NCBI GenBank assembly: GCA_963743305.1
Contig: CAVUPH010000024.1
Location: 32,001 to 96,000 of the forward strand
DNA: 64,000 bases
Direction of reading: 5' to 3'
Source of the DNA: an uncultured delta proteobacterium
GTDB taxonomy: Bacteria; Desulfobacterota; RBG-13-43-22
Part shown: positions 7,160 through 40,575 of the stretch, piece after piece
Numbering within the stretch: the stretch's first letter is position 1
How the letters are laid out: every line of letters begins with the position of its first letter
The notes under the pieces: model-generated
The model's database searches: none
Told to the model about the DNA's origin: nothing
What the model saw: the letters and a program-made list of their open reading frames with translations, nothing else
Made by a program: the position numbers and the translations under genes

Positions 7160-8113
7160 ATGCCCCCCCTCGAGTTTCCTAATGTTCTGATCGGTCACGC
7201 TTCCTATCCGGACGGACCTACCGGTTGCACCGTGATCCTTTGCCCGGAAGGGGCGGTGGCCGGGATGGATGTCCGCGGTTCCGCCTCCGGCACCCGTCAG
7301 ACCGACTCCCTCTCCGCCCTCCACCGGGTACCCCACATTCATGGGATCTTATTGGCCGGGGGAAGTTCTTTCGGGCTGGATGCTACCGGCGGAGTGCTGC
7401 AATACCTGGAAGAAAAAGGGATCGGCTTTGATGTGACCGTTACCCGGGTACCCATCGTGCCTTCGGCTATCCTTTTTGACCTGGCCTTCGGCAATCCGGC
7501 CGTGCGGCCGGACAAGTCCCTGGGGTATCAGGCCTGTATGAACGCCTCGGCCGGCACGGTGGAGGAAGGGAGTGTCGGGGCCGGGATCGGAGCCACGATC
7601 GGGAAACTGTTCAGCGTCCTCCAGGCCACCAAGGGCGGCCTGGGCTATGCCTCCACCACCTTGGAAAATGGATTGACGGTCGCCGCCCTGGTGGTGGTCA
7701 ACGCCTTCGGCGATGTGCGGGATCTCGAGGGAAACATCCTGGCCGGGGCTCGCACCGGCCCCCGGGACACCACCTGGGCCAACACCTGGGCCTGCATGAA
7801 GCAGGGAATCCAGCCCAAACAATTCGTGGTCCAGAACACCACCCTGGGCGTGATCCTAACCAACGCCCGACTGGACAAGGCCGATGCCCGCAAACTGGCC
7901 CAGTTGGGCCAGAACGCCCTGGCCCGGGTGATCGCCCCGGTACATACCCTCTACGACGGGGACATCGTCTTCGCCCTGTCCGTGGGGACGGTCGAGGCCG
8001 GTCTGATGCAGGTGGGAATAGTGGCCCAGGAGATGCTCCAGGAAGCCATTCTCCGGGCGGTCAAAGCCGCCGACGGCCTGGGCCGCCTCCCGGCCTGGCG
8101 GGATTTTCACTAG
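7160..8113 (+). CDS. P1/S58 (DmpA-like) peptidase family protein
   Basis: TGCTVIL, DVRGSASGTR, LAGGSSFGL, GSVGAGIGAT, NTTLGV and HTLYDGDIVFALS motifs. Confidence 0.88.
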   Translation: MPPLEFPNVLIGHASYPDGPTGCTVILCPEGAVAGMDVRGSASGTRQTDSLSALHRVPHIHGILLAGGSSFGLDATGGVLQYLEEKGIGFDVTVTRVPIVPSAILFDLAFGNPAVRPDKSLGYQACMNASAGTVEEGSVGAGIGATIGKLFSVLQATKGGLGYASTTLENGLTVAALVVVNAFGDVRDLEGNILAGARTGPRDTTWANTWACMKQGIQPKQFVVQNTTLGVILTNARLDKADARKLAQLGQNALARVIAPVHTLYDGDIVFALSVGTVEAGLMQVGIVAQEMLQEAILRAVKAADGLGRLPAWRDFH

Positions 8114-8157
8114 TTCCACCGTTGGAAGTCATCCGTCAACCCATCGTTAAGCGCTAT

Positions 8158-9617
8158 TCACCTGTTTTCTTCCGCCAAAAGGGCCTCTGCGGCAAAAATG
8201 CCGGACATGGCTGCCGGGGCTACGCCGAACCCCGGGTAGGTAGTCTGGCCGGCCTGATATAAACCGGAGATTTGAGAAGCGTGTGGAAACTGTGCTTTGA
8301 GAGCCGCCGCCGGGGATAGGCCATAGACGGCCCCTTTGTAAAGATGCAGACGACCCTGAAAATCCTTGGGGCTGCGGACCCTTTTTACGGCAATGTCGAT
8401 AGTATTTTGGCGGGTCAGCGCCTGGAGAGTCGATTCGACCACCTCCCCGGTTTTCCGCTCATTCCAATCGTCAGCCGGTAAATCCTGATTTATAGCCGGA
8501 AATATCTCGACGATGCTTCCGCCCTTTGGGGATAGCTCGGGCATCGTCACAGTGGGTACGAAGGTAATAAACCATTTCCCTTCATCCTTTCCTGGAGAGA
8601 AAAATTTGAAATGCTCCTTCATCATCGGAAAAATGATATGGGTATGGCTGCGGAGGCCGATCACGTTCTTTAACCCAAGTTGGATTGAAAACGCCTTGGG
8701 GGACAAGGGCGCCTTACGTATCTTCAGGCTCATTCCACTCGGCAATTCCTCGGGATCCAGGAGTGAACGGAAAGTAGCCATTCCATTAACGGTTGATATG
8801 ACGGCGTCCACCTCGATCGGACCGAATCCTTCAATTTTCAATCCAGAAACCCGTCCATTCTTCAGGAGTATTTTCTGGATCTTCGCGTTTAGAAATATTT
8901 CGCCACCATTATTTCTCAAAGCCCGACCCAGAGCTTCCGATATTTTTCCCATGCCTCCTTCAGGCAGATAATATCCCTTACTCAGGAGGGCAATGAGCCC
9001 TAATATTAATAGAATCGGTGTCTTCTGCGGCGGCGTGCCCGTATACCAGAGAGCGCCGGCCATGGCGGAGCGTACGGCCTGATCGCTGAAAAGGTCATTT
9101 ATTTCTGAGGCCACTGTCCCGTGGAATTTGTGAAGATGCGGCCACACTTTTGGAATCAGCCGTGAAAGTGAAAAGGGGTTGGTCAATAGGTCATTTTCAT
9201 AGAGCCGGAGCACGGGATCCCATTTCTTTCGCAGGTTATCAAGTTCTCTTTGCAGTCGGCCCGCATTACCCTTGGCCATCCCCCGGTTCACCCTTACCTG
9301 GTACTTATCACCGATAGACACAACCGTTCCGTCAGGCAATGTTGTCCGGTGAGAGGCCACTTTCCTTAATGGCAGGATTGAACGGCGTTCAAGGCCCAAC
9401 TTCGCTCAAAAACTCGATCGAGGATCCCGGGAAAACTTAAGTAAACAGCCCCATCGTTAAATGTATAATCCCCTATAGTTGTGTTTGCACAACAGCCGCC
9501 CAGCTTATCATTGGCTTCAAAAAGTTTCACTCTCAGGCCCCGTCGAGAGAGCAGGCCACCTGCGGAGAGCCCCGACACTCCACCCCCGATAATCCCTATG
9601 GTCCGAATTTTACTCAT
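8158..9617 (-). CDS. Phytoene desaturase (CrtI)-like FAD-dependent oxidoreductase, apparent frameshift near 9405
   Basis: N-terminal IGIIGGGVSGLSAG...LFEANDKLGGC (ATG 9617) joins the 8158-9399 frame with YLPEGGMGKISEAL, GAVYGL and GLYQAGQTTYPGFGVAPAAMSG. Confidence 0.8.
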
Positions 9618-9666
9618 AGCGCCTTTTCCTGAACGGTCGAGAAGGGAGGGAATTGTGACCTCCTTT

Positions 9667-11202
9667 CTAATAACAGACGGTTGCCGGATCGGGCATCCCC
9701 CATCCCTCAAATTTTGAACCGAATCCTCTTTTCAGACAACTGCTCTTCAGCAAATTCTCGATAGCCAGTGACCGATTACGGTCCCGAGGCATTTCATAGA
9801 TGTTCTTGTTGCCGGAAAGCAGACAGGCAGCAGCGCCTGAGACAACCGGGGCCGCCATCGATGTTCCACTGCATGATCCGAAGCCGTTCCCTGGCAATGT
9901 GGATAACACCCCTACCCCTAAACCCGTTAATGATATCTGTTTACCGACGTTTGAAAATCCGGCAAGGAACTCATCCGGGTCAGTGGTACCCTTCGGCGGT
10001 CGGTCGACGAAGGCCTCGTCAATCACGCCGGGAGGAAAGGTCCCTTCCCTTCCCATGGCCGAAACGGCTGTTGCGCCGGGAAAAGCGGCCGGGTAATTGA
10101 CTGCCCCACGGAAATCGTTGCCCGCGGCCACTACGACGAGCACCCCATTATCCCGTGCATCCGTAATCGCCATCTTTAGGGCCTGATCGTTTGGGTCCCC
10201 GTTCTCGATGCTCAGATTAATGATATCGCACTTTTCAATTTGCGCTAGGCCTATGGCATTCAACAGATCTGCGCTATTGGCATTACCTCCCCCGAAAATC
10301 CGGTAAGATCGAATCCCGACCCCGGGTGCGAGCCCGCACAAAGTACCTTGAGCGCCGATAAGTCCCGCGACAAAGGTGCCGTGTCCTACCGAATCGTAAT
10401 AATTTCCAGAGGATTGTCCTAGAACCACATTTCGCCCCCCAATAAGATGCAGATCAAGGTGAGGTCCGACACCGGTGTCGATGACACCCACCGTGACACC
10501 GATCGAGGGATCAAACCGGGACTGGCGATAGTATTGACGCACGCCATCCCTGAAGTACAAATTCAGTGGTTCCAGGTCGAGATCGATAGACGGACTTATG
10601 GGAATATTTCGGCGAAAAGCACCCCACCGCCACAATTGTTCGCAGTAGAGCTGTTCAATGGATTGTCCTGAGAGTCGCATCATTACCTCTCCAGAAGCAT
10701 CGGTCACTTTTTCATCCCCTTCGTTACTTTTATAATTCGAGATGGCGGTCACCAATAGGCCGCTGCCTATTGGAACTCTTTTCCCATTTTCCTTTCCCCA
10801 AACCTTTATCGTAACGTCTGAACACTTCCCCTTCGGTCGCTTTGGTCTCATGACTCCAGCCATAGGTGCGGAAGCCTTCGCAAGGCCACCCGAAACTCCC
10901 GATGGCCTTCTAGGCGTGAGGGGCATGTTTAGCGGCCGGTCATACTTGAAGATAGGCCATCTGAGAACCGCTCGGTTTTGATCCACCGCACGAGCGGCCT
11001 CGTCGTCCAACTCCACCACCTTTGGACCTTGAGGCAGGATGGAATGAATGACCCGGATTTCCTTTCCCCCTGCAAGATTGGTTTTTTTTACCATAAAGGG
11101 CCTGGGGGGTCCTATAGATTCCTCCAGCGGATGCAGCTCCTTTAGCGCTTCACTAAGAAATCCTTTACGGGGTGTCAATAGGTACTGCTTGGTTTCGGCC
11201 AT
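9667..11202 (-). CDS. S8 (subtilisin-like) serine protease, no obvious signal peptide
   Basis: Triad VGVIDTG / GHGTFVAG / SGTSMAAP, oxyanion AAGND, AGGAGG RBS before ATG 11202. Confidence 0.9.
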   Translation of the reverse strand: MAETKQYLLTPRKGFLSEALKELHPLEESIGPPRPFMVKKTNLAGGKEIRVIHSILPQGPKVVELDDEAARAVDQNRAVLRWPIFKYDRPLNMPLTPRRPSGVSGGLAKASAPMAGVMRPKRPKGKCSDVTIKVWGKENGKRVPIGSGLLVTAISNYKSNEGDEKVTDASGEVMMRLSGQSIEQLYCEQLWRWGAFRRNIPISPSIDLDLEPLNLYFRDGVRQYYRQSRFDPSIGVTVGVIDTGVGPHLDLHLIGGRNVVLGQSSGNYYDSVGHGTFVAGLIGAQGTLCGLAPGVGIRSYRIFGGGNANSADLLNAIGLAQIEKCDIINLSIENGDPNDQALKMAITDARDNGVLVVVAAGNDFRGAVNYPAAFPGATAVSAMGREGTFPPGVIDEAFVDRPPKGTTDPDEFLAGFSNVGKQISLTGLGVGVLSTLPGNGFGSCSGTSMAAPVVSGAAACLLSGNKNIYEMPRDRNRSLAIENLLKSSCLKRGFGSKFEGWGMPDPATVCY

Positions 11203-12523
11203 GATTTCCTCCTTTCGCTCCCACAGTGAAGGGGAGATGGCTCCTTCCTCCAGACACTGCCGGGCGGTCTGTATAGACCCGATGGAACAGAAAATATTCA
11301 ATGCACTGCTCCCCGACACAAACCTTCATCCCCAGATCTTCACACCATTGCACCAATTGAACCAGTTTCAAAAGCGCATTGTTGGCCGGCTGCTTTTTTT
11401 GAGAACTGAACTCGGAGGCCGGTGTGGCCCTGAAAGGGTAGACATTTACAACCTCCAGGTACCTCCGGTGGTCCGCCAGAAATTGAATCGTTTTCTCAAA
11501 ATCGAGGCTGCTCTCCCCCGGGCAACCAATTACCAGAGAAGGGGCGGGCAATATTCCGCAGGAATCCAGCCCTTTTATGAAATCCGACATCTGCTTGGTG
11601 GTGATCCCTTTATTCATGGTCCGCAGAGTGCGGTCACTTCCAGACTCCAACCCAAAAAAGATCACTCGACAGCCTGCCCTCCCAAGGGCCTCCATCTTTT
11701 CTCCAGACAGGTCCGCCCTGGAGGCCCCACACCACGGTTTATTAAATCGCTCGAGGTAGCCGCAGAACTCATTCAAATTATGGCCATTGAGTGAATGATC
11801 CCTGCAGACCAGTACCGCCGGGTCATAGCGATCAATCAGCACCTCCAATTCCCTGAAAGCGGTCTTGGCCGACCGTTCAAGATATCCTGAATTCCCACCT
11901 TTAGAAAGGGAACAGAACCCGCATTTCCCCCAGGAGCATCCATGTTTCAATATGAAAGGAAGAAGGTCAAACAGGTATTTTCCCCGATGCGCATACCTGG
12001 GACTGGGCAGCAGGTCGTAATGGATCGGTTTTGCCGCCTCGCCCCTCGTAAAAAGATCATTCAAATGCACCGTTTGTACCCCGTTTTTCTTCAACGCTTC
12101 TTCGTTGGTCCATGAACCCAGCGAGTTGCCGAAGAAAAATACCCTGGTGTCGCCGGATACCTGCCTGATGGTGTGAGAGAGTCTCAAAACCGCTTCCGCG
12201 GGGACCGTAGGAAACCAGGAAGGAGTGGTAATATAAACCCGGGGATATTTCTCCCAAGAGATGGCGGCATACGCTCTTTCGATCTGGGTCTCAAGTTCAT
12301 CGTAAAAGGGATAAAGAAAATAGGCATCCGAGACTTTCGGGGCCTGGTCCATGACGTGCAATATTCGCTTGAGTTTTCTTCGGTTTCTGAAATAGAGTTC
12401 AGCATTTAGATCGATCACTTCCAGATCATATCGGCCTCCCAAGATCGCGGCGCCGTAACCCAGTAATAAATTGGGATGAAAGGGTAGATGAGGAAGCCAT
12501 GGGGTTACCAGAGCGGCCTTCAT
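11165..12523 (-). CDS. B12-binding-type radical SAM enzyme
   Basis: N-terminal PHLPFHPNLLLGY...VIDLNAELY, HGCSWGKCGFC (CX4CX2C), FFGLESGSDRTLRTMNKG; GGAGG RBS before ATG 12523. Confidence 0.85.
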   Translation of the reverse strand: MKAALVTPWLPHLPFHPNLLLGYGAAILGGRYDLEVIDLNAELYFRNRRKLKRILHVMDQAPKVSDAYFLYPFYDELETQIERAYAAISWEKYPRVYITTPSWFPTVPAEAVLRLSHTIRQVSGDTRVFFFGNSLGSWTNEEALKKNGVQTVHLNDLFTRGEAAKPIHYDLLPSPRYAHRGKYLFDLLPFILKHGCSWGKCGFCSLSKGGNSGYLERSAKTAFRELEVLIDRYDPAVLVCRDHSLNGHNLNEFCGYLERFNKPWCGASRADLSGEKMEALGRAGCRVIFFGLESGSDRTLRTMNKGITTKQMSDFIKGLDSCGILPAPSLVIGCPGESSLDFEKTIQFLADHRRYLEVVNVYPFRATPASEFSSQKKQPANNALLKLVQLVQWCEDLGMKVCVGEQCIEYFLFHRVYTDRPAVSGGRSHLPFTVGAKGGNHGRNQAVPIDTP

Positions 12524-12684
12524 TTTGTCCTCCAAGCAAGGGGACTTTCCACCCCAGCGCTAAAGATCCCTGAACTCCAGCAACACCCGTCCTTCCCGCT
12601 CGTCTGCGCTGAAACGCCAGGTCGAAGTTAAAAGACGAGACGATAACCTCATCTCATGATGCCGAAAATTTACGTCACTCAAAA

Positions 12685-12954
12685 CTAGTACCCCGTTTCC
12701 AAGAGAGCCTTCTTCGCCCGGCCCGTGGTCTTGAAAATTTCTAACAGCCGGGATACCTCTTCGGTGGTTACCCCTTCGTACCCCCAATCGACCAAGAGCT
12801 GGCGGAGTGCTTTTGCGTTTGCGCCTTCCTTGTTCAGCTCGCCTAGGAAATGCATCCCGACAGTTGAATCATCACGGCACGCGTCCGCAATCAAATCCAT
12901 CATATCCCTCTTAGGCTTTTGCTTCTTCGTCGGTACCTTTTTTGGCGTGGTCAT
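12685..12954 (-). CDS. 89-aa small protein, candidate RiPP precursor with Nif11-like leader
   Basis: AGGAGG RBS then MTTPKK...DLIADACRDDSTVGMHFLGELNKEGANAKALRQLLVDWGYEGVTTEEVSRLLEIFKTTGRAKKALLETGY; lies between two radical SAM genes. Confidence 0.65.
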   Translation of the reverse strand: MTTPKKVPTKKQKPKRDMMDLIADACRDDSTVGMHFLGELNKEGANAKALRQLLVDWGYEGVTTEEVSRLLEIFKTTGRAKKALLETGY

Positions 12955-13037
12955 ATTCCCTCCTCCTTTTTTTATCCGCACATGAGCCGTTCTGATCGAA
13001 CCTTTTATCCTCTGCGCAAGAAGGCGATGATTAGGGG

Positions 13038-14072
13038 TTACCCATAGGATGAGGCCCTGGACAGTACTCTCTGACAATAGGGGACCTGCGGGAACATGTC
13101 CCGGTACCATTCCGAAGGTCTCATCATCCCCTCCTGGCTGCAAAGGCAAACGTATTCGCAATTTCGACAAATCCTTTGATCCTTCGACACCGGCCGGCCA
13201 TACTCATTCGAGTTGATGAGGGTCGAGAGAATACCCGGAACATAGGAGCCGAAATGCTCTGTAGTTGAATGAGCCGGGGTGATGCGCCCTTCCGCGGTGA
13301 TCATCACGCTCCCCGGCCGGTATAAAGGAGGAGACCGGGTTATCCAGGGTAACTTGAGGATACCTGAGGCCACCGCCGCCAGGGGATTGTTCAATAAGTC
13401 CACTTTCAAACCGAAAAGATTCAGAAGGGAAATCATCCGGACCAGCCGGAGAAAGTCACCGGGACGCAGTACCTCCTTTGACAGATCAAATACATCCTCC
13501 GGCACGCGAATGAGCTGTATGAAAGACAACTGCTTGATGCCGGGGAACTCTATAAAAAGCTTTTCTGCAAAACGAGGCATTTCTGAAATGAGGCTTCTAC
13601 CGACGGGGCTAAAGACGTGCACGGGAAGACCAGCATCCAGGGCTTGGCGGATACCCCCTAGAGCCCGGTCGTATGACCCTTTCCCGCGTAGGCGGTCATG
13701 ATTTCGTCTCGGCCCCTGAAGGCTTATGGAAATAGATAACCCTTCATAGTTGGCAAGTTTACGGCTGACTTTACCGGTCAGCAAGGTCCCGTTGGTATTC
13801 AAAAAGGCCGTTTGGTATCCCAGGCCAAAGGCCTGATCGAGAATTTCCAGCAAACCTTCCCACAGGAGTGGCTCCCCCCCGGTCAGGTGCAGGTGCCTAA
13901 ATCCGGCTTCATATCCCTCCTGGACCATATTCTGAGCCAGAGCGGGGACAAGACCTGACCTCTGCGGACCGCGGGCGCGGACAAAGCAATGCGAGCAGGA
14001 ACTATTGCAGCGGGTCGTTACCTCAAGCCCGAGGCATTCGCCGTGAAACCGGAGAATAGCCAATTCGTTCAT
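13038..14072 (-). CDS. Radical SAM enzyme with SPASM-like C-terminus
   Basis: EVTTRCNSSCSHC (CX3CX2C), HLTGGEPLL, LNTNGTLL, C-terminal CRNCEYVCLC...YC. Confidence 0.88.
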   Translation of the reverse strand: MNELAILRFHGECLGLEVTTRCNSSCSHCFVRARGPQRSGLVPALAQNMVQEGYEAGFRHLHLTGGEPLLWEGLLEILDQAFGLGYQTAFLNTNGTLLTGKVSRKLANYEGLSISISLQGPRRNHDRLRGKGSYDRALGGIRQALDAGLPVHVFSPVGRSLISEMPRFAEKLFIEFPGIKQLSFIQLIRVPEDVFDLSKEVLRPGDFLRLVRMISLLNLFGLKVDLLNNPLAAVASGILKLPWITRSPPLYRPGSVMITAEGRITPAHSTTEHFGSYVPGILSTLINSNEYGRPVSKDQRICRNCEYVCLCSQEGMMRPSEWYRDMFPQVPYCQRVLSRASSYG

Positions 14073-15097
14073 TGTATCCTTCCTGATGGTTCGCTTTCTT
14101 TTTTTGACGCTTCGCCTTTTGGGGTAAGATTATTGAGGTCTCGAAATTCCTTGGCCAACCCTATCATCCGGTGAGCTTCGACCCTAGATGCCGCTGTCTC
14201 TAATTCCGTGCCTATCTTTTCTTTGATTTTGTCAATAAGGTTGTTTTCCAAAATATGTTTGAGAATAGCCTTCAAGGAATCTTTGGCCCTAGCCCGGCCC
14301 CTGCTCCTATAATGATTCCAGTGAGTCCTCATTTTATCAGGAAGGCCAATATATATTGCCGAGTGTTTCCCCTTTTCGAGATCACGCTTTATATCCCGAA
14401 TATCATCGAGAAGCCGCCAAGCAATCCCGAAGGAACCATAGGCCCTCTCAACATCCCTGGTAAGATCCGAGAATCCGGTCATCTTCAGGGAGAGGAGAAT
14501 GGGAGCCACCATGCCGATGGCCATCTGTTTTCTAAAACGATGACCATAGCCAACAAGAGATATTTGCCCTTTTGAATCTCGGGTGCTCTCATAATAATCA
14601 TCAATAAAGCCTCGGACGGTTTTCATTCCTTCGGGAAGGCCTTCCGCCAGATTGCGGAAGGCCCGGTTCATGAGCGTCCAGGCCTGGCTTCTCAGGAGTA
14701 ATGTCAGAGGGGAAACGGAAAGCTGTTTATCGGTGAGATGATCGTCGAGAGAGTGAAGAAACATCGCCAGGGATTGGGCGGTTACTGCATGGGCAACATC
14801 CTTTTTTTCCAAACGCTTGGTAGGGAGAGCCCGATCGCGGCTGAGCCAGTAAATAATGGACCAGGCAGGAGGATAATAATGAGCAAAAAAATCCAACTTG
14901 TTGCCTGGAATTATCCCCGCATACTGCAGGAGGAAAAGGATCGAATCGGTCTGAGTGGACTTAGGAAGGGATCGGCAAAAGAAAAGGATTTCTTTGCTGA
15001 ACCGCCGATAAAAGGCGGTTTCTCTTTTCGAAAGTACACCCTTACCGAAATCTACGGTTTCGCAGTGAAGCAGGAAATCCCTGATAGTACCTTTCAT
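14069..15097 (-). CDS. Class 1 isoprenoid biosynthesis enzyme fold (polyprenyl synthase/ComQ-like prenyltransferase)
   Basis: Two Asp-rich motifs FLHSLDDHLTD and GIAWRLLDDIRD, followed by DLEKGKHS; stop overlaps the rSAM start (ATGA). Confidence 0.75.
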   Translation of the reverse strand: MKGTIRDFLLHCETVDFGKGVLSKRETAFYRRFSKEILFFCRSLPKSTQTDSILFLLQYAGIIPGNKLDFFAHYYPPAWSIIYWLSRDRALPTKRLEKKDVAHAVTAQSLAMFLHSLDDHLTDKQLSVSPLTLLLRSQAWTLMNRAFRNLAEGLPEGMKTVRGFIDDYYESTRDSKGQISLVGYGHRFRKQMAIGMVAPILLSLKMTGFSDLTRDVERAYGSFGIAWRLLDDIRDIKRDLEKGKHSAIYIGLPDKMRTHWNHYRSRGRARAKDSLKAILKHILENNLIDKIKEKIGTELETAASRVEAHRMIGLAKEFRDLNNLTPKGEASKKESEPSGRIQ

Positions 15098-15138
15098 TCG
15101 AAAACGCTCGATTTCCCTGGTCCTTCCGTCGAAGGTCT

Positions 15139-18100
15139 TTAGATCTCAGTAGGTTCAAGACCTGCCCGGTTAATCACCGAAGTCAGATCCTCCAGTTCAT
15201 GGTGCAGGCCCATTTCACGGAACATCGTTTTCGCCCTCAACAAAGGCTCCTTGGCTCTCAGCGCTTCGGGACGCGAGCCTTCGCGAATGCCCTCACAAAG
15301 GCAGGTGCCCATTTCAGCGCAGGTCCTTGAGAGCTGAGGACGGGCACCCAGACTTTCCCCTTCATGAATGGCCTTACTCCACCACGTATAAGCGCTTTTC
15401 TGATCGCGGATCAACCAGTGGTAGAGACCCATTAATCTATAGGATTCCGTCCGGTATTGCGCCGCTTTCCGACAAGTCTTGATCGCCATTTTTCCTGAAT
15501 TGAAAGCCTTTCTGCGATTTTCAGAAGCTCCCTCTCTTTGGCCGGCCCGAAGAGATTCTTCCAGACGACATAGGTAGTATTCGAACTGACTCCGATAAAA
15601 GACGGATAACTGCGTGGGAACGGCCTGCACTTCAGATTTGATCCGCTGGGCGTGATCAAGTGACTTTCCCGCCGCCTCCGTTTCTTTCACCAACAGGTGT
15701 ATCAAAGCCTTTAGGCAATGCATATTCATTAAAGGTAAGGTGAAGCCCCATCTCTGGAAAAGGTCGATTCCTCGAGTCACTTCGGCAGTGGCTTCCTGGA
15801 TCAGGCGGCATTCAATGAGCAGACTAATATTCAAGCAGATAGTGCAAACAACGAGAGATGTCGTTTTCATAGACTTCGGCGATATCGCGCAGCTTGGTCA
15901 CCGTCAGTCTGGCCGCCTCAAATTGCCCCTGGTAAACTTGGGCGAGTCCGTGCCAGTAATAATGCTGGGAGGCGTAATACATTTCCCCAAGTCTCAGATT
16001 TCTGGTCACCAAATCTTCGTTGCAATCGAAAATATCCTTCCACTGTCCTTTGAGAAAAAGGTGAATCGTATCCACGAGATCATAGACTATTTTTTGCTTG
16101 GCATCATCCGGAGCCAGTCTCGGCTTGGCGTAATCCATGATTCGTCTGCTAATACTCAGGGAAAGACCGGTGAAGGAGAACAGGGCACTGGCACCAGCAA
16201 AAATGCCTATACCCAACTTGAACTGTGCCAGATCGAAATGGACGATGGTGTCATAGAAGAAAAAGGATTCGATAAAAAAACGCTTGGGGTTGATAACCAC
16301 CAGGGCCTCACCCTTTTTATAGAAAAGCTCTACCGCTTCGGTATCCTGCCAAGTGGGTAGTCTCTTGAACCAGAAGGAAGGAAAGTACAGGGCCAGGATG
16401 AAGGTCGTGAAACTGGACAGGAATTTTAAGGCGGTGGTCAAAGCATTTTGGGGGAATTCGCCCCAATAGTAGTTCAGGGCCTTGTCGAAATGCTCCACCG
16501 CCTCGGCGTAGTGCCCTCGATTAAAAAGAGCTAATCCGATGTTTTTCTCCAGCATGGCCACCTTTTCCGGATCGGCGCTGTGGCCTTGCAGCTTGCGATA
16601 AATGTTAAGCGCCTCCTGGTAATAGGTAAGCGCTTCGTTGGAAGCCGATGATCGCAAAGCCTCTTCTCCGGCGTTGATCAAGTACTCTTCGGCTTTCTCC
16701 AGACTCTCGGCCCTGCTGTAATGATAGGCCAACATCCCGTAGAATTCGTGAAGCCGCTCGTTAAAGACTTTTTCTATAGCCTGGGCCACTCTTTGATGGA
16801 TCTCTTTTCGCTTCCGGATCAGGATGGACTCATAGGCCGCCTCCTGGGTCAAGGCGTGCTTGAAGAGATACTCCACCTCCTCCATCCGTTTTCGTTCCCG
16901 AATGAGCTGAATCTCCTTAAGGTAATCGAGCCTTCTGTCAATCCCCTCGATGGTGCCGGTTACTTCGGTGAGGATCTTATAGAAGAAGTTTCGGCCGATG
17001 ACGGAGGCCACCCGGACCACGTTCCTGGTTTCTTCATCCAGGCGATCGATTCGAGCCATGATGAGGGCATGGATACTCTGGGGAATGACGATGTGTTGGA
17101 TCTTCTCCGTCACCCGGTATTCTCCCTTTTCCGGGACCACGGCACCTTCATGGATCAGGGAGCGGACCACTTCCTCGATGAAAAAGGGGTTCCCTCCTGC
17201 TCTCTGGAGAATCTGCTCCCGAAGTTTATTGGGAAAACTATCGGTCCGGTGGAGATTCGTGAGGAGTTGCTCACTTTCCGATTCTTTCAAGGGGTCTAAT
17301 TCGATCTTGGTCCAGTAGGCCGGATAGTTCTCCTGGATGGAGGCCGTGACTTGTTCTCCCGTGTCGGTATAGCCGGGACGGAAGACTAAAATAAAAAGAA
17401 TCCGGTATTCTTCCACCAGGCGAAAGAGGGCCTTCAAAAGTCCCAGGGAACTCACATCCACCCAATGGAAGTCTTCCATATAAATCACCGTAGGCCGGAT
17501 TGCGGAGCCCTTGATGAGGATCTCCCGCATGCTCTTAAAGATCAGCTTTTCTAAAGCCTCCCCTTCGATGCCCTTAACCCGCTGGGCGTATTTCCCGGTG
17601 AGCTTCATCCCCATGAGGGTGGCAATGAAGGGAAAGATCTCCCCCACCTCCTGGAAATGAATGTCCCGGATGGCCCGCTCCAGTTTCCACTGGGCCTCGG
17701 TATCGGTGTCATCCTCCCTGATTTGGGACCAGTGTTTCAGGGCGTCGATGATAGGATAAAAACTCAGACCTCTTCCCATGGAAAGGGATCGACCTTCGAG
17801 AATGGTGGTCTTTTTAGCGACCTCGGTCAGGCGCAACTCAGCCAGAAGGCGGGACTTCCCGATCCCCGGCTCGCCGCTGACGGTGATAATCCCTCCCCTA
17901 CCATTGATGAGGCGCACGACCTGAAGCGATAAGCGGTCCATTTCCTTATCTCTTCCCACCAAAGGGGAATCGACGCCCACCGATCGTCTTTTTCTCTCTT
18001 TTATCTCTACGACACGGTAAACCCGGACCGGATCGGTTTTGCCTTTGACCCGAACGGGTACGAGCGGTTCAAAATCAAAAAACCAATCAGCCTGACGAAA

Positions 18101-18744
18101 GGTGCCGTCACCCGCTAAAATCTCACCGGGCCTCGCCAGCGTAGACAACCGTGACGCCAGATTAACGGTATCTCCCATAACCCCCAGAATTCCATTTCCC
18201 TTGGTTACTTCACCGGTAACGACCAGTCCTGTATTGATGCCTGTATGCATGGCCAGACGTTTTCCAACTTTAGGCTCAAACTGAGGACTGATCGCCTCGA
18301 TTCGTTCATGGATTTCTCTCGCGGTTCGGATTGCTCGCACTGGATCATCTTCATGAACCTTGGGCACCCCAAAAAACGCCACCACCGCATCCCCGATAAA
18401 TTTCTGAATAGTTCCTTCATATTTGCTCACCGTGGCGGTAATTTCCCCGAAGATCTGATTCATGATTTTCTTGAGCTCTTCGGGATCTAAGCGCTCAGAC
18501 ATGGCCGTATAACCGGAGAGATCGGAGAAAAGAACCGTCACCTGCTTTCGTTCCTCTTCGATGGCTGGTTCTATCTGTCCGGTTCAGCGGATTCATCTAA
18601 TTGCTGCCCGCACCTGCCGCAGAACCGAAATCCATCGGGATTTACGAAATGGCAGCCTGGGCAAATCCCCTCCAATTTGGCACCACATTTTCTACAAAAA
18701 TCCAGGCCATCGGGGTCAGGATATTGACATTGGGGGCATTTCAT
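15139..18744 (-). CDS. Double zinc ribbon + class III nucleotide cyclase + P-loop ATPase (STAND-like) + TPR protein; apparent frameshifts near 18575 and 15835
   Basis: ATG 18744 after AAGGAG gives MKCPQC...FCRKCG...CPGC...FCGRCG. A shifted frame gives ERKQVTVLFSDLSGYT, KFIGDAV, GDTVNLASRL, Walker A GEPGIGKS, GGNPFFIEE, YLFKHALTQEAAY and TPRs; the tail continues in ORF 15139-15870. Confidence 0.85.
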
Positions 18745-18800
18745 TCTTGGGCTCTCCTTCGATAGAGATCCCTTAATAAAACTCCGGAAGGTGGCGGTGG

Positions 18801-18842
18801 AAATACAAAAGCCTCCACAGGGCTTTACCCCTCTGGAGGCTT
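18801..18842 (-). terminator. Intrinsic-terminator-like hairpin inside the 5' leader of the cyclase gene (possible attenuator)
   Basis: Minus strand AAGCCTCCAGAGGG-GTAAAG-CCCTGTGGAGGCTT, running into TTGTATTT, ~60 nt before the ATG. Confidence 0.6.
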
Positions 18843-18941
18843 CGTCTCGGAATTTCTTGAAACTCCCACTTCATATCCCAATCCAAAAGTTTTTTAGAGT
18901 TAGGTTAGGAAGTTCACGATCAAATTTAACTGTAGGATAAA

Positions 18942-18971
18942 ATCTTAACCATATTTTAGAAAAAATGTCAA
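18942..18971 (-). promoter_or_regulatory. Sigma70-like promoter candidate for the cyclase/RiPP-like cluster
   Basis: TTGACA-N18-TAAGAT on the minus strand in AT-rich DNA. Confidence 0.5.
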
Positions 18972-18985
18972 TGGTTTTCTAGGTT

Positions 18986-19138
18986 AACGAAGGGGATGTT
19001 CAAAGGCTGGATGACTGGATGCCGGCCGGATAAGCGGTTGGTGGATCCCTTCTCGGGGCGCGATAAACGAAGGGAATGTTCTAAGGCTGGATGACTGGAT
19101 GGCGGCCGGATAAGCGGTCGGCGGCTCCCTTCTCGGGC
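18986..19138. repeat. Two tandem ~80-bp direct repeats
   Basis: aacgaagggRatgttcWaaggctggatgactggatgScggccggataagcggtYggYggMtcccttctcggg starting at 18986 and 19066. Confidence 0.9.
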
Positions 19139-28578: not shown

Positions 28579-28605
28579 GGATTGGTTGGGGGGATAGAAA
28601 AGGGC

Positions 28606-29205
28606 TTAACTGAAATGGTTTAATTTATAATAAGTCTGGTAGCGCAGCACTTTGGAAAGATATTTTTTCGTGTCTTTAAAGGGCGGGACACCATTGTGGC
28701 GTAGGACCTGATTCGGGCCCGCATTATAGGCCGCTATAGCCAGATGTTTGTCTCCATTAAAAGCATCCAACATTTCCCGCAGGTAGCGAACCCCTCCATA
28801 GATATTGTACTTGGGATTGAAGGGGTCGGTGATTCCCAATTCTTCTACCGTGATGGGATCAATCTGCATCAATCCCTTAGCACCTTTCGGAGAAACGGCC
28901 AAAGGGTCAAACCGGGATTCGGCATGAATTACTGCTTTTACCAGGGCTGGATCCAGGGCATACTTTTGGGATGCGCTCCGAATCCAATGATCGTAGGTGT
29001 TAACCGAGGCTGATCGCTCTTCGAGGGTCAGGTGATATAAACGAGCGTCTGGAATTGGAGTCTGTTCCGCGAGGGCAATTTTTTCGCTGAAAAACTCCTG
29101 CGATACCCCCTCTTTCTCGGGAAAAAGGATAAAGAATCCATTCAATCCCAGAATCAACCCTGCCACCCCTATATGAGCTATTTTTTGAATAATCTGTTTG
29201 GTCAT
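28606..29205 (-). CDS. Lytic transglycosylase (SLT domain)
   Basis: LVKAVIHAESRFDPLAVSPKGAKGLMQ and AIAAYNAGP; start uncertain. Confidence 0.88.
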   Translation of the reverse strand: MTKQIIQKIAHIGVAGLILGLNGFFILFPEKEGVSQEFFSEKIALAEQTPIPDARLYHLTLEERSASVNTYDHWIRSASQKYALDPALVKAVIHAESRFDPLAVSPKGAKGLMQIDPITVEELGITDPFNPKYNIYGGVRYLREMLDAFNGDKHLAIAAYNAGPNQVLRHNGVPPFKDTKKYLSKVLRYQTYYKLNHFS

Positions 29206-29892
29206 AATCACAACCCGCCTTATTGCCGAAAACCCATTGCTTAAGTTTTCCCCGGTCGAATCGGTTGAGCGTTCGTACGAGTAACTATCTTGAACCAAGT
29301 TATCAAGATGAGTAAGCAATAAAAAATAAAGCTCAACCTGTTCGGCATTTTTTACCCGGATGTTATTTTTTATGGAATAGGGTAGATAATAAGGATTTCC
29401 AGGATGAATGTCAATGACTAAGTTCGGAGTTAGTCGGCCTCAACCGCTCGACTGGCCTGATTAACAATCAGAATCAGCGACCTTTAGAAAAAAAATAGGT
29501 ATTAGTTTACAAATTAAAACTTATTGTTATTGTATAATTTTTTATAAATAACTTTATATTAATTCGAGAATGGAATTCCAACCTCCCAAGGGTCCAGACC
29601 GACTCGTTCTTCAGAACAGGGTCGATCACTGCTTAAATGCTATTTTCTCGAAATGCCTTTCAGCCCATGACACCGAAAGAATTACACATCCCGAGCTCCG
29701 CAAGTCTTCGGGCTCCTACTCGATGTTCCGGTCCTGGTTATTCAAAGTGTTGCGATTTCATTACTATTTGGTTAGACTAAAAACCACTACTCGGGTTAAA
29801 TTTATTGTGCGGATTATTCTTTAAAAAATTATTGAACGGGCTATTTAACCATTTATTTTCAGGCGAGTCTAATTAGTTGAAAAATTTGATTT

Positions 29893-40476: not shown

Positions 40477-40575
40477 CTTTTTGGATCGTTTGATATTTAT
40501 TTCTATATTCTCAATTAAACGTTTCTGTTTTTTTTAGGCGGTCTACCAGCGCGGATAATTCTTCGCGAGGAAAAA

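What the first reader, a model, noticed from the sequence alone, without database searches (positions are those of the whole stretch)
8158..18744. Candidate undescribed RiPP-like system: prenyltransferase-fold enzyme, two radical SAMs, Nif11-like precursor, S8 protease and CrtI-like enzyme behind a cyclase-STAND gene
Seen: seven tightly packed minus-strand genes with ATGA or RBS coupling, in DNA that looks less GC-rich than the flanks, sitting between a P1 peptidase and purine-salvage genes. Known: small peptide + rSAM/SPASM + B12-rSAM + S8 protease is standard RiPP logic. ComQ, a class-1 isoprenoid-synthase-fold enzyme, prenylates the ComX peptide, and CrtI-family enzymes act on polyprenyl chains. 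Inference: the cluster makes a prenylated, radical-modified and proteolytically released small peptide whose tail may be desaturated or reduced. I know no characterised pathway with this combination.
Basis: partly seen in the sequence, partly recalled or inferred. Interest (0 to 1): 0.9.

Follow-up and report, generated by a model that had tools for sequence, protein, structure and literature searches.

The report
Tyrosine-ended peptide with prenyl-type enzyme cassette
This is a real, widely conserved but undescribed gene cassette that modifies a small peptide always ending in tyrosine, using a radical enzyme and an enzyme shaped like a prenyl-chain synthase, and it sits next to signalling proteins, so its product may be a lipid-tagged bacterial signal.

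Summary
Seven gene products were confirmed, with caveats below. Three frameshifts break the CrtI-like and cyclase-STAND genes; whether they are real is open.

The core recurs widely. It is an 89-aa peptide, a 342-aa enzyme with no Pfam or NCBIfam hit but a trans-isoprenyl-diphosphate-synthase fold, and a radical SAM enzyme. It appears in 62 genome loci (Desulfobacterota, Spirochaetota including Leptospira) and 80 metagenome loci. Five distinct metagenome contigs carry the full gene order, including the second radical SAM, S8 protease and CrtI.

The only invariant peptide residue besides Met1 is the C-terminal Tyr: 144 of the best 150 library representatives end in Y. Peptides not ending in Tyr lie in loci without the radical SAM gene.

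A complex prediction supports binding of the leader to the fold enzyme (0.68, best control 0.44).

The cassette always adjoins signalling proteins. In one group this is a cyclase-STAND protein whose C-terminal part co-varies with the enzymes. In the other it is a 7TM hybrid histidine kinase directly after the peptide gene.

Closest known systems are PalPXQ and ComQXPA. My best reading is a prenylated, Tyr-modified peptide signal. The chemistry is untested.

The parts
18571..18744 (-). Piece 1 of the cyclase-STAND gene. It carries the start ATG at 18744 and Cys-rich zinc-ribbon-like repeats (MKCPQCQ..CRKCG..CPGCH..CGRCG). It is in a different frame from piece 2.
   Evidence: G002 protein aa 2-77 match window 18822-18595 at 87% in another frame; the window has 2 extra nt near 18583 relative to G002.
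15824..18583 (-). Piece 2 of the cyclase-STAND gene. It holds a class III nucleotide cyclase domain, an AAA_16 STAND NTPase, TPR repeats, and the start of the variable C-terminal part (from about aa 700).
   Evidence: Guanylate_cyc E 3e-19, AAA_16 E 1.2e-19, TPR_12 E 6.8e-6. TIGR03903 E 1.5e-90, below cut-off; identity breakpoint near aa 700.
15139..15870 (-). Piece 3 of the cyclase-STAND gene. It is the alpha-helical C-terminal part with no Pfam hit, and it is in frame with piece 2 in relatives.
   Evidence: a single ORF of 1174-1225 aa in relatives.: +1 nt near 15835 relative to L112; its identity tracks IPS342 and the radical SAM (r 0.92-0.95).
14069..15097 (-). 'IPS342', a 342-aa enzyme with a trans-isoprenyl-diphosphate-synthase (class I isoprenoid) fold. 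It has invariant LHSLDDHLxD and WRLLDDxxDxxxD motifs and a predicted leader-binding N-terminal region (aa 31-68).
   Evidence: no Pfam or NCBIfam family; model pLDDT 76.5; top Foldseek hits are GGPP, hexa-, hepta- and octaprenyl synthases, E 6e-5 to 1e-3, TM 0.5-0.66; motif conservation in 58 homologues; complex prediction.
13038..14072 (-). Radical SAM enzyme. It has CxxxCxxC at C22/C26/C29 and four conserved C-terminal Cys (C302, C305, C311, C333), consistent with one auxiliary cluster. It has no N-terminal RRE domain.
   Evidence: Radical_SAM E 2.6e-21; many SPASM-type families hit, all below cut-off; conserved Cys in 50 homologues; adjacent to IPS342 in 51 of 62 loci.
12685..12954 (-). 89-aa precursor peptide. 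It has a helical Nif11-like leader (..DMMDLIADA.., ..WGYEGVT..EEVSRLL..), a variable core, and a C-terminal Tyr (..LLETGY).
   Evidence: family found; the last Tyr is the only invariant column besides Met1. Tyr counts; ribosome-binding site.
12635..12657 (-). Hairpin followed by a T-run, 28 nt after the precursor stop codon. It is a possible attenuator.
   Evidence: This is weak: terminator-like sites in the region are not above the shuffle expectation (11 found, 14 expected).
11165..12523 (-). Second radical SAM enzyme with a class-B-like two-domain architecture (N-terminal Rossmann-like domain plus radical SAM barrel). Its cluster motif is the unusual Cx4Cx2C (C196, C201, C204, numbered in the 452-aa protein).
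   Evidence: Radical_SAM E 5.9e-11. RiPP C-methyltransferase, MCR Gln C-methyltransferase, HpnJ and PhpK families hit at E about 1e-16 to 1e-14, all below cut-off; model pLDDT 77.9; top folds are AprD4, OxsB, TsrM and MgmA; no Pfam B12-binding domain.
9667..11202 (-). S8 subtilase. It has no obvious N-terminal signal sequence and starts at ATG 11202 behind AAGGAGGA, overlapping the end of the second radical SAM gene by 38 nt.
   Evidence: Peptidase_S8 E 1.8e-35; start and ribosome-binding site; an S8 gene sits at the same position in L079, L091, L093, L096 and L102; a 54% homologue in L113.
8158..9617 (-). CrtI-family FAD oxidoreductase gene, split into an N part (9366-9617) and a C part (8158-9399) by a +2 nt shift near 9403.
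   Evidence: crtI_fam E 1.7e-30 (C part) and 2.6e-10 (N part); indel relative to L079 and L096; a single 477-502 aa ORF in six metagenome loci.
8123..16452 (.). Stretch with no nucleotide homology to the same-genus genome G002, which carries a divergent version of the cassette at the same site. It includes the 3' part of the STAND gene.
   Evidence: blastn matches cover 7175-8123 at 92% and 16452-19056 at 83%, with nothing between; content of the G002 cassette.

Best explanation
The region is one copy of a widespread, uncharacterised RiPP-type cassette.

- **Substrate.** The substrate is a ribosomal precursor with a structured Nif11-like leader, a variable core and an obligatory C-terminal tyrosine.
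- **Leader binding.** The 342-aa isoprenoid-synthase-fold enzyme binds the leader through its own N-terminal helices.
- **Prenyl transfer (inferred).** Using its two invariant Asp-rich motifs, that enzyme transfers a prenyl group from a prenyl diphosphate to the core.
- **Tyr chemistry (inferred).** The adjacent radical SAM enzyme has no leader-recognition domain of its own and works on the terminal Tyr. The most likely reaction is oxidative decarboxylation and/or a cross-link, as MftC, PqqE and RrrB do on Tyr.
- **Tailoring in this lineage (inferred).** A second, class-B-like radical SAM enzyme probably C-methylates. A CrtI-family flavoenzyme probably alters the prenyl chain. An S8 protease removes the leader.
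- **Role (inferred).** The product is most likely a lipidated peptide signal. In Desulfobacterota it would be read by the C-terminal helical domain of the neighbouring cyclase-STAND protein, which would convert it into a cyclic-nucleotide output. In Spirochaetota it would be read by a 7TM hybrid histidine kinase.

Shown here: gene content, conservation, fold, motif invariance, the link between Tyr and the radical SAM gene, and the cassette-like co-variation. A model supports leader binding. All the chemistry, and the signalling role, are inferred.
For: **Conservation**
- The IPS342 search found 677 proteins at E<=0.001 among 3507 candidates. None of the 120 listed carries a precomputed Pfam domain.
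- In 62 genome loci, the radical SAM gene is adjacent in 51, the peptide is found in 44, and the second radical SAM in 18.
- One locus (L016) has IPS342 and the radical SAM as a single 678-aa ORF.
- The full order STAND-IPS-rSAM-peptide-rSAM2-S8-CrtI occurs in L079, L091, L093, L096 and L102/L151.

**C-terminal Tyr**
- It is the only invariant column besides Met1 in 33 aligned peptides.
- 43 of 48 peptide ORFs from the genome loci, the window and G002 end in Y. Of the other five, one is cut by a contig end. The other four (L041, L059, L060, L062) lie in loci with no radical SAM hit.
- 46 of 48 complete ORFs in the metagenome loci end in Y.
- 144 of the best 150 of 516 library representatives end in Y.

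**Fold and active site**
- All top Foldseek hits are trans-isoprenyl diphosphate synthases.
- D118, D119, H120, R136, D231, D232 and D235 are present in 58 of 58 homologues, down to 27% identity.

**Leader binding**
- ipSAE is 0.68 against a best control of 0.44. That mark was reached by 58 of 80 solved complexes and 2 of 110 mismatched pairs.
- The runs agree in at least 55% of contacts and the partner's pLDDT is at least 70.
- The interface joins IPS342 residues 31-68 to peptide residues 17-40 and 66-78.
- My own alignments were used, so the calibration counts hold only roughly.

**Signalling context**
- A STAND cyclase is present in 21 of 62 loci, and a hybrid kinase lies 1-347 nt after the peptide gene in 15 of 62.
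- The kinase has the domains 7TMR-DISM, HisKA, HATPase, REC and SpoIIE.

**Co-variation**
- Across 18 loci, identity to the window in STAND aa 701-903 and the C-terminal piece correlates with IPS342 and radical SAM identity at r 0.93-0.95. The N-terminal 700 aa do not correlate (r -0.21 to 0.07).
- L012 shares the cassette (80, 71, 73, 73%) but not the N-terminus (44%). G002 shares the N-terminus (83%) but not the cassette (34-46%).

**Isoprenoid-type accessory enzymes**
- CrtI-like genes occur in 6 of 80 metagenome loci.
- Geranylgeranyl-reductase-family FAD genes occur in 6 of 62 genome loci, 12 of 80 metagenome loci, and G002.

**Precedent**
- PalP (histidine kinase), PalX (NHLP leader, conserved C-terminal Trp) and PalQ (isoprene-synthase-superfamily prenyltransferase) form a comparable cluster (PMC10853753, sections 2.1 and 2.7 read).
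Against: - No chemistry was measured.
- IPS342 matches no ComQ, polyprenyl-synthase or any other curated family. Its best PDB sequence hit has E 0.13.
- A 2026 review states that all characterised trans-IDS-like peptide prenyltransferases act on Trp and share a Gln before the second Asp-rich motif (PMC13290415, section 2.4). Here the residue I take as equivalent is Arg228 (56 of 58) and the acceptor would be Tyr.
- The confident predicted interface covers the leader, not the C-terminal Tyr.
- Four loci have IPS342 and a peptide not ending in Tyr, so Tyr need not be the prenyl acceptor.
- The GGR-family proteins also resemble peptide-residue hydroxylases such as QhpG, LodB and GoxB, so they do not prove a prenyl chain.
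- No exporter was seen in the cassette.
- Co-variation of the STAND C-terminus could reflect protein-protein contact with the enzymes, or simple co-transfer, rather than ligand sensing. Kin are not independent.
- In this window the STAND and CrtI genes carry three frameshifts, so this copy may be inactive.
Confidence: 0.55

Rival explanations
1. The cassette makes an antimicrobial or otherwise bioactive RiPP. The adjacent STAND cyclase or histidine kinase only regulates production, possibly by autoinduction as with nisin, and there is no dedicated cell-to-cell signalling function.
For: Many RiPP clusters carry regulators. NCBIfam has a 'TOMM system kinase/cyclase fusion protein' family that the STAND protein resembles (TIGR03903, E 1.5e-90, below cut-off). 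The cassette is patchy and island-like: it is absent at this site in G001 and G003 and has lower GC. The core sequences are variable.
Against: No immunity, ABC-transporter or C39-peptidase genes recur among the neighbour clusters. The peptide gene lies directly before the kinase gene in 15 of 62 loci. The receptor-like C-terminal domain travels with the enzymes, which is what is expected of a ligand-receptor pair.
Confidence: 0.2
2. The peptide is only a scaffold. The C-terminal Tyr is converted into a small molecule, for example a prenylated and methylated quinone-like cofactor or diffusible autoinducer. It is then cut off, as in mycofactocin or PQQ biosynthesis.
For: Only the terminal Tyr is invariant, and the residue before it is free: KY 28, AY 17, SY 17, GY 14 and others among 150. 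A radical SAM enzyme is tied to the Tyr. Proteases, FAD oxidoreductases and methyltransferases are frequent accessories. By recall, MftC acts on a C-terminal Tyr.
Against: The mycofactocin radical SAM model is missed by far (56 bits against a cut-off of 265). No RRE chaperone or partner dehydrogenases were seen. A product built from Tyr alone gives no reason for the receptor-like domain and the core to diversify together. The distribution is patchy within one genus, which is unlike a core cofactor.
Confidence: 0.17
3. The small ORF is irrelevant. IPS342, the radical SAM enzymes and CrtI make or modify a free isoprenoid lipid.
For: The fold matches chain-length synthases. HpnJ and HpnH-type hopanoid radical SAM families appear among the weak hits. 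CrtI and GGR family enzymes normally act on isoprenoids.
Against: The small ORF co-occurs across two phyla with an invariant terminal residue linked to the presence of the radical SAM gene. A model supports leader binding by IPS342. Proteases recur in the cassette.
Confidence: 0.04
4. The region is an anti-phage defence island built around a STAND NTPase and a nucleotide cyclase.
For: The island is variable between strains. PADLOC gives domain-level hits to Pycsar cyclases (E 2e-16), viperins (E 1.2e-14) and a subtilase (E 8e-35).
Against: These hits cover only generic domains. IPS342, the peptide, the second radical SAM, the C-terminal STAND piece and the CrtI C part hit nothing in PADLOC. 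The Spirochaete version has a kinase instead of a STAND protein.
Confidence: 0.02

Closest known systems
PalPXQ of Paenibacillus alvei (PMC10853753; abstract and sections 2.1 and 2.7 read)
   Same: Three-part logic: a histidine kinase, a precursor with a long structured leader (NHLP) and a conserved C-terminal aromatic residue, and an isoprene-synthase-superfamily prenyltransferase with no assigned family. That prenyltransferase binds the leader domain and needs the acceptor at the very C-terminus.
   Different: The terminal residue here is Tyr, not Trp (2 of 150 library peptides do end in W). A radical SAM enzyme is obligatory wherever Tyr is present. The leader is Nif11-like rather than NHLP. 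The hosts are Gram-negative anaerobes and spirochaetes. In Desulfobacterota the partner is a cyclase-STAND protein, not a kinase. No sequence comparison with PalQ could be made, because no PalQ sequence was available from any tool.
ComQXPA quorum sensing of Bacillus (ComQ and ComX; PMC13290415 section 2.4 read; polymorphism pattern recalled)
   Same: A trans-IDS-like enzyme prenylates a ribosomal pheromone that is read by a neighbouring sensor. By recall, comQ, comX and the sensor part of comP vary together between strains. Here IPS342, the radical SAM, the peptide and the STAND C-terminal part vary together.
   Different: ComQ acts on an internal Trp and there is no radical SAM step. The receptor and output domains differ. 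The ComQ-type Gln before the second Asp-rich motif is Arg here (equivalence of the position is inferred from the motif, not from a structural alignment).
Mycofactocin (MftA and MftC) and PQQ (PqqA and PqqE) pathways (recalled)
   Same: A SPASM-type radical SAM enzyme acts on a Tyr of a small precursor. In MftA the Tyr is C-terminal.
   Different: The TIGR03962 and PqqE-type models are far below cut-off or only weakly similar. The penultimate residue is not conserved. There is no RRE protein. An isoprenoid-fold enzyme and signalling proteins are present instead of redox partners.
Nif11 and NHLP leader RiPPs (proteusins, prochlorosins); TIGR03798 and PF07862
   Same: A long helical leader of about 55-60 aa precedes a short variable core. 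The G002 cassette has a second radical SAM resembling the 'nif11-like peptide radical SAM maturase' (E 4.6e-53, below cut-off).
   Different: Only 3 of 33 peptides touch PF07862 (best E 0.028) and 2 of 33 touch TIGR03798 (best E 0.029). The window's peptide touches neither.
RRNPP-type peptide receptors (TPR domain binds a signalling peptide; recalled) and the 'TOMM system kinase/cyclase fusion protein' (TIGR03903)
   Same: A repeat-helical domain sits next to a peptide-producing locus. A cyclase-NTPase-TPR architecture is associated with a RiPP cluster.
   Different: The TIGR03903 score is 304.6 against a cut-off of 705.75. There is no kinase domain and no DNA-binding output. Peptide binding by the C-terminal domain is untested.

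Membership tests
Trans-IDS-like peptide prenyltransferases (ComQ, PalQ, ChrPC P domain) | Class I isoprenoid synthase (all-alpha) fold | tested here: met
   AF2 model pLDDT 76.5. The top Foldseek PDB hits are all trans-isoprenyl diphosphate synthases, probability 1.00, TM 0.5-0.66, identity 10-17%.
Trans-IDS-like peptide prenyltransferases (ComQ, PalQ, ChrPC P domain) | Two conserved Asp-rich motifs (FARM and SARM) | tested here: met
   DDHLxD: D118 and D119 in 58/58, D123 in 57/58. DDxxDxxxD: D231, D232 and D235 in 58/58, D239 in 57/58.
Trans-IDS-like peptide prenyltransferases (ComQ, PalQ, ChrPC P domain) | Conserved Gln just upstream of SARM, used for Trp recognition (PMC13290415 section 2.4) | tested here: not met
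   The motif reads W227-R228-L-L-D-D, with Arg in 56/58 and Lys in 2/58. Positional equivalence is inferred from the motif only.
Trans-IDS-like peptide prenyltransferases (ComQ, PalQ, ChrPC P domain) | Trp acceptor in the precursor | tested here: not met
   The conserved terminal residue is Tyr. W ends only 2 of 150.
Trans-IDS-like peptide prenyltransferases (ComQ, PalQ, ChrPC P domain) | Binds its precursor's leader | tested here: inconclusive
   The model supports binding: 0.68 against a best control of 0.44. This is a prediction, not a measurement.
Trans-IDS-like peptide prenyltransferases (ComQ, PalQ, ChrPC P domain) | Prenyl transfer to the peptide | not testable with these tools
   Needs an enzyme assay or mass spectrometry.
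Nif11-like leader peptide family (PF07862, TIGR03798) | Match to the family model | tested here: inconclusive
   3 of 33 peptides at E<=1 (best 0.028) in Pfam and 2 of 33 (best 0.029) in NCBIfam. The window's peptide has no hit.
Radical SAM / SPASM peptide maturases | CxxxCxxC cluster motif and radical SAM core | tested here: met
   PF04055 E 2.6e-21. C22, C26 and C29 are conserved in 50 homologues.
Radical SAM / SPASM peptide maturases | SPASM domain with the full seven-Cys pattern for two auxiliary clusters | tested here: not met
   No Pfam SPASM hit at E<=0.01. Only four conserved C-terminal Cys were found, in the pattern CX2CX5C...C, enough for one auxiliary cluster.
Mycofactocin maturase MftC (TIGR03962) | Score above the curated cut-off | tested here: not met
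   56.2 bits against a cut-off of 265.
Class B (cobalamin-dependent) radical SAM methyltransferases | N-terminal cobalamin-binding domain plus radical SAM barrel | tested here: inconclusive
   No Pfam B12-binding hit at E<=0.5. The model's best folds are AprD4, OxsB, TsrM and MgmA, but MiaB and RimO are close behind. All NCBIfam class-B families are below cut-off. The cluster motif is Cx4Cx2C.
CrtI / phytoene desaturase family (TIGR02734) | Score above cut-off on an intact protein | tested here: not met
   The pieces score 106.2 and 39.6 bits against a cut-off of 238.1. The gene is frameshifted. Relatives have one ORF of 477-502 aa.
Peptidase S8 (subtilases) | Pfam domain and Asp/His/Ser motifs | tested here: met
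   PF00082 E 1.8e-35, above cut-off. IDTG, HGT and GTSMAAP are seen in the translation.
TOMM system kinase/cyclase fusion protein (TIGR03903) | Score above cut-off | tested here: not met
   304.6 bits against a cut-off of 705.75. The match covers profile positions 306-923 only, so there is no kinase part.

The most novel reading that the evidence does not exclude
The cassettes are a large, unrecognised family of ComX/PalX-like lipidated peptide pheromone systems in Gram-negative anaerobes and spirochaetes. The acceptor end is a radical-SAM-transformed C-terminal tyrosine, which would be the first non-Trp chemistry for a trans-IDS-like peptide prenyltransferase. The cassettes exist as exchangeable 'pherotype' units in which the ligand-making genes travel with the ligand-reading domain. 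In Desulfobacterota that domain is the C-terminal part of a STAND NTPase that turns peptide sensing into cyclic-nucleotide synthesis.
Probability: 0.3. Interest if true: 0.9.

Novelty: new variant of a known kind. Interest (0 to 1): 0.78.

Why it matters
- **Under-explored signalling.** Peptide-based, lipidated quorum signals are known almost only from Firmicutes. A conserved system of this kind in Desulfobacterota, Spirochaetota and some Leptospira would open a largely unexplored layer of communication in anaerobic sediments and soils.
- **New enzymology.** It would extend trans-IDS-like peptide prenyltransferases beyond tryptophan and couple them to radical SAM chemistry on a C-terminal tyrosine. 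Both enzymes could serve as tools for site-specific C-terminal protein lipidation.
- **STAND NTPase input.** The co-travelling receptor domain offers a testable example of how a STAND NTPase can be wired to a small-molecule or peptide input.
- **Gap in curated libraries.** The three core proteins match no curated Pfam or NCBIfam family above cut-off, yet there are at least 516 peptide clusters at 50% identity. This is a sizeable gap in the curated family libraries searched here.

Tried and rejected
**An early conclusion that I overturned.** After I concluded that the S8 and CrtI genes were window-specific. There were no tblastn hits in 62 genome loci, and one search found the S8 in 0 of 30 relatives at E<=1e-20. 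Metagenome loci of closer relatives show the same S8-CrtI tail, so that conclusion was wrong.

**Read support for the frameshifts.**
- The best run holds 0.14 of the sampled words. No RNA holder is listed.
- The laid contigs leave 9321-9641 almost uncovered and 15099-16382 uncovered, so none of the three sites is tested.

**S8 scan of metagenome contigs.** Exact peptide patterns matched 201 stretches, but none encodes a relative.

**Family searches that gave nothing.**
- Pfam and NCBIfam on the peptide, IPS342 and the C-terminal STAND piece gave nothing significant. The best for IPS342 was SQS_PSY at E 0.16.
- PDB by sequence gave, for IPS342, a best hit of a hexaprenyl transferase at E 0.13. 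For the radical SAM it gave BlsE, SkfB and PqqE, matching the core only.

**Other checks.**
- Protein atlas: the nearest clusters are 'Terpene synthase', hypothetical proteins and 'class 1 isoprenoid biosynthesis enzyme'. This is a lead only.
- Hydropathy scan for membrane helices in the STAND C-terminal region: two conserved segments score 1.6-1.9, which is borderline. The window's own piece is below threshold. Inconclusive.
- Terminator and promoter scans are not above the shuffle expectation.
- A stop-to-stop ORF map did not let me judge how common split genes are in the window.
- PADLOC gave generic domain hits only.

**Limits.**
- Supplementary files were not consulted. Figures S3 and S5-S6 of PMC10853753, and the sequence-similarity network behind Figure 4 of PMC13290415, might already contain this family as an unlabelled cluster.
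- The home-made S8, FAD and CrtI profiles were trained partly on the loci they were then counted in: 7 of 12 S8 hits, 2 of 12 metagenome and 3 of 6 genome FAD hits, and 5 of 6 CrtI hits.

Full report
**1. What is in the window**

Domain searches give the following.
- A CrtI-family FAD oxidoreductase in two pieces.
- A Peptidase_S8 (E 1.8e-35).
- A radical SAM enzyme whose core resembles class-B methyltransferase families. All those hits are below their cut-offs.
- An 89-aa ORF with no family.
- A second radical SAM enzyme resembling many SPASM-type maturases, again all below cut-off.
- A 342-aa protein with no family. I call it IPS342.
- A nucleotide cyclase / AAA_16 STAND NTPase / TPR protein.

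Gene starts and coupling are as follows.
- The precursor has an AGGAGGAGGG site before ATG 12954.
- The second radical SAM starts at ATG 12523 behind GGAGGA.
- The S8 gene starts at ATG 11202 behind AAGGAGGA and overlaps the preceding gene by 38 nt.
- IPS342 and the radical SAM overlap by ATGA.

GC content is 0.48-0.545 across 8-19 kb, against 0.55-0.64 and 0.56-0.59 in the flanks. The flanks are a Peptidase_S58 (MEROPS P1) gene on one side. On the other are two amidohydrolases and a PNP_UDP_1 phosphorylase. The observation therefore stands.

**2. Three frameshifts**

- The CrtI-like gene has 2 extra nt near 9403 relative to two metagenome relatives. Its homologues are single ORFs of 477-502 aa.
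- The STAND gene begins at 18744 with a zinc-ribbon-like piece.
- It has 2 extra nt near 18583 relative to the same-genus genome G002.
- It has 1 extra nt near 15835 relative to L112. Relatives have a single ORF of 1174-1225 aa.

The genome is a 43-contig MAG, 90% complete. Same-genus MAGs also show split flank genes: the P1 peptidase and an amidohydrolase in G002, an amidohydrolase in G003, and the radical SAM in G002. Assembly error is therefore plausible. Public contigs did not cover the three sites. I cannot tell whether this copy is decayed.

**3. The cassette is conserved**

IPS342 has 677 relatives at E<=0.001 among 3507 candidates. None of the 120 listed has a precomputed Pfam domain.

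A scan of one genome per species gave 62 loci. They come from Desulfomonilaceae, Syntrophaceae, Desulfatiglandales and Desulfobacterales, from many Spirochaetota and Leptospirales including cultured Leptospira, and from single Firmicutes and Planctomycetota MAGs.

In those 62 loci:
- the radical SAM gene follows IPS342 in 51;
- the second radical SAM is present in 18;
- the STAND cyclase precedes the cassette in 21.

One locus (L016) has IPS342 and the radical SAM as a single 678-aa ORF.

A profile of the small ORF finds it in 44 of the 62 loci.

At first I found no S8 or CrtI relative in these loci or in 30 relatives. Eighty metagenome loci of closer relatives changed that picture. L079, L091, L093, L096 and L102 (L151 is the same sequence) carry STAND-IPS342-rSAM-peptide-rSAM2-S8-CrtI in this order.

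Other variants carry different accessory genes.
- S8 plus another FAD oxidoreductase in L113, L138, L148 and L149.
- A C25 peptidase in 6 genome loci.
- A geranylgeranyl-reductase-family FAD protein in 6 of 62 genome loci and 12 of 80 metagenome loci.
- SAM methyltransferases in further loci.

The profiles were partly trained on the loci counted.

**4. The peptide**

In an alignment of 33 peptides the mean identity is 25%, and the only invariant column besides Met1 is the C-terminal Tyr.

Counts of peptides ending in Tyr:
- 43 of 48 ORFs from the genome loci, the window and G002;
- 46 of 48 complete ORFs in metagenome loci;
- 144 of the best 150 of 516 representatives in a 1.84-billion-protein library. 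The rest are W 2, L 2, F 1 and S 1.

Of the five exceptions, one is cut by a contig end. The other four (L041, L059, L060, L062) are in loci where no radical SAM homologue is found within 10 kb either side. This links the radical SAM enzyme to the terminal Tyr. One Tyr-ending peptide (L038) lies in a locus without the radical SAM gene.

The leader has two conserved helices (..F-I/L-D-F-I.. and ..W/F-F..KGY.V/I-S..E/D-C..L..). It resembles Nif11 leaders only marginally: 3 of 33 in Pfam and 2 of 33 in NCBIfam, best E about 0.03.

**5. IPS342**

The AlphaFold model (pLDDT 76.5) matches trans-isoprenyl diphosphate synthases. The top hits are GGPP, hexa-, hepta- and octaprenyl synthases, with probability 1.00, TM 0.5-0.66 and identity 10-17%.

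Two Asp-rich motifs and Arg136 are invariant or nearly so in 58 homologues, down to 27% identity. This argues for a working metal- and diphosphate-dependent active site.

A complex prediction with controls supports binding of the peptide.
- The score is 0.68 against a best control of 0.44.
- That mark was reached by 58 of 80 solved complexes and 2 of 110 mismatched pairs.
- The runs agree in at least 55% of contacts and the partner's pLDDT is at least 70.
- My own alignments were used, so the calibration counts hold only roughly.

The confident contacts join IPS342 residues 31-68, a family-specific N-terminal region, to the two leader helices. They do not include the terminal Tyr.

The radical SAM enzyme starts directly with its cluster motif at residue 22 and has no recognisable leader-binding domain. 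I therefore infer that IPS342 also presents the peptide to it. The ATGA coupling and the one fusion fit this.

**6. The two radical SAM enzymes**

The first has CxxxCxxC and four conserved C-terminal Cys. That is enough for one auxiliary cluster. No Pfam SPASM domain is found.

The second has an invariant Cx4Cx2C motif and a two-domain model. Its best fold matches are AprD4, OxsB, TsrM and MgmA. No B12-binding domain is detected by Pfam. 'B12-dependent methyltransferase' is therefore plausible but not shown.

**7. Signalling context**

In Spirochaete-type loci the peptide gene is followed, 1-347 nt later on the same strand, by a protein of about 1000-1100 aa (shorter where contigs cut it). This holds in 15 of 62 loci. 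In two further loci, L031 and L038, the contig ends beside the peptide gene. Three such proteins were scanned against Pfam. Each has the domains 7TMR-DISM, HisKA, HATPase, REC and SpoIIE.

In Desulfobacterota the cyclase-STAND gene is immediately upstream.

**8. The cassette moves as a unit together with the end of the STAND gene**

The same-genus genome G002 carries, at the same chromosomal site, the following genes:
- an intact STAND gene;
- IPS342 (43% identical to the window's);
- the radical SAM;
- a peptide ending ..GQKVY;
- a PapB/nif11-type SPASM maturase;
- an S53/S8-like peptidase;
- a GGR-family FAD protein.

G001 and G003 have unrelated genes at that site.

Nucleotide homology between the window and G002 runs through the flanks and the first 2.1 kb of the STAND gene. 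It stops at 16452 and resumes at 8123. At protein level, STAND identity is 73-90% up to about aa 700 and 24-41% after that.

Over 18 loci, identity to the window in STAND aa 701-903 and in the C-terminal piece correlates with IPS342 and radical SAM identity at r 0.93-0.95. The N-terminal segments do not correlate. L012 shows the reverse of G002: the cassette and C-terminal part are 71-80% identical but the N-terminus is 44%.

So the C-terminal helical domain is inherited with the biosynthetic genes. By recall, comQ, comX and the sensor part of comP behave the same way in Bacillus. Kin are not independent, and co-transfer or enzyme-receptor contact could give the same pattern.

**9. Comparison with what is known**

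The closest described system is PalPXQ: a histidine kinase, an NHLP-leader precursor with a conserved C-terminal Trp, and an isoprene-synthase-superfamily prenyltransferase. That prenyltransferase binds the leader domain and requires a terminal acceptor (PMC10853753, sections 2.1 and 2.7).

A 2026 review states that all characterised trans-IDS-like peptide prenyltransferases (ComQ, the ChrPC P domain, PalQ) target Trp and share a Gln before the second Asp-rich motif (PMC13290415, section 2.4). Here the terminal residue is Tyr, the corresponding residue is Arg, and a radical SAM enzyme is part of the core.

None of the three core proteins reaches any Pfam or NCBIfam cut-off. Six full-text searches listed no paper on such a system. 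I saw only the listings for all papers other than the two named above, and supplements were closed.

**10. Verdict**

The finding is real and conserved. It is best read as a new variant of the ComQX/PalQX kind: a leader-dependent, probably prenylated peptide whose C-terminal Tyr is transformed by a radical SAM enzyme, made by an exchangeable cassette that is wired to signalling proteins.

The rivals remain open: an antimicrobial RiPP with a regulator, or a Tyr-derived small molecule made on a scaffold peptide. The free-lipid pathway and the defence system are unlikely. All the chemistry is inference.

Noticed in passing
L079, L088, L091, L096, L102 (metagenome loci), peptide C-termini: In four of the five distinct loci with the S8-CrtI tail, and also in L088, the core ends in a D-W-x-Y motif (GDWQY, PDWVY, TDWLY, WDWHY, VDWTY). 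The window and L113 end in LETGY. This hints at a possible Trp-Tyr chemistry in that subgroup.
   Followed up: no
P0226, P0264 (library representatives): Two members of the peptide family end in Trp (..VGIFW..VGIW) instead of Tyr. They may be a bridge to PalX-type C-terminal Trp precursors. Their gene context could not be looked up.
   Followed up: no
L016:10001-12037: IPS342 and the radical SAM enzyme form one continuous 678-aa ORF in a 480-kb MAG contig. This is either a natural fusion or a lost stop codon.
   Followed up: partly
L039:14339-15051; L133: Two precursor genes lie in tandem before the kinase gene in L039. Two Tyr-ending hits occur in L133.
   Followed up: no
window 15824-16440 and orthologues (STAND aa ~760-890): Two moderately hydrophobic segments (FLSSFxTFILALYFPSFWF and GIxIFAGASxLFSFxGLS) recur at the same place in many STAND orthologues, with borderline membrane-helix scores of 1.6-1.9. 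They lie at the start of the variable part.
   Followed up: partly
window 11165-12523: The second radical SAM enzyme has an invariant Cx4Cx2C motif instead of the usual CxxxCxxC.
   Followed up: no
G002:C27 (L072), G003:C6 (L074): Flank genes are split into two frames in same-genus MAGs: the P1 peptidase and an amidohydrolase in G002, and an amidohydrolase in G003. This suggests indel noise in this group of assemblies.
   Followed up: partly
window 40519-52120: A very long plus-strand ORF (2978 aa, stop to stop) is followed by an overlapping 912-aa ORF in another frame. It may be one giant gene split by a shift. Not examined.
   Followed up: no
window 28500-30000: GC falls to 0.40-0.45, lower than anywhere else in the first 30 kb. 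Not examined.
   Followed up: no
L017, L019, L020, L034, L046, L058: A Peptidase_C25 (gingipain-like, with propeptide) gene lies beside the precursor gene, between it and the second radical SAM where that gene is present. L058's copy was scanned by Pfam and the other five share its sequence cluster. It is on the opposite strand in L017, L019, L020, L034 and L058 and on the same strand in L046. It is a third protease family recruited to the cassette.
   Followed up: partly
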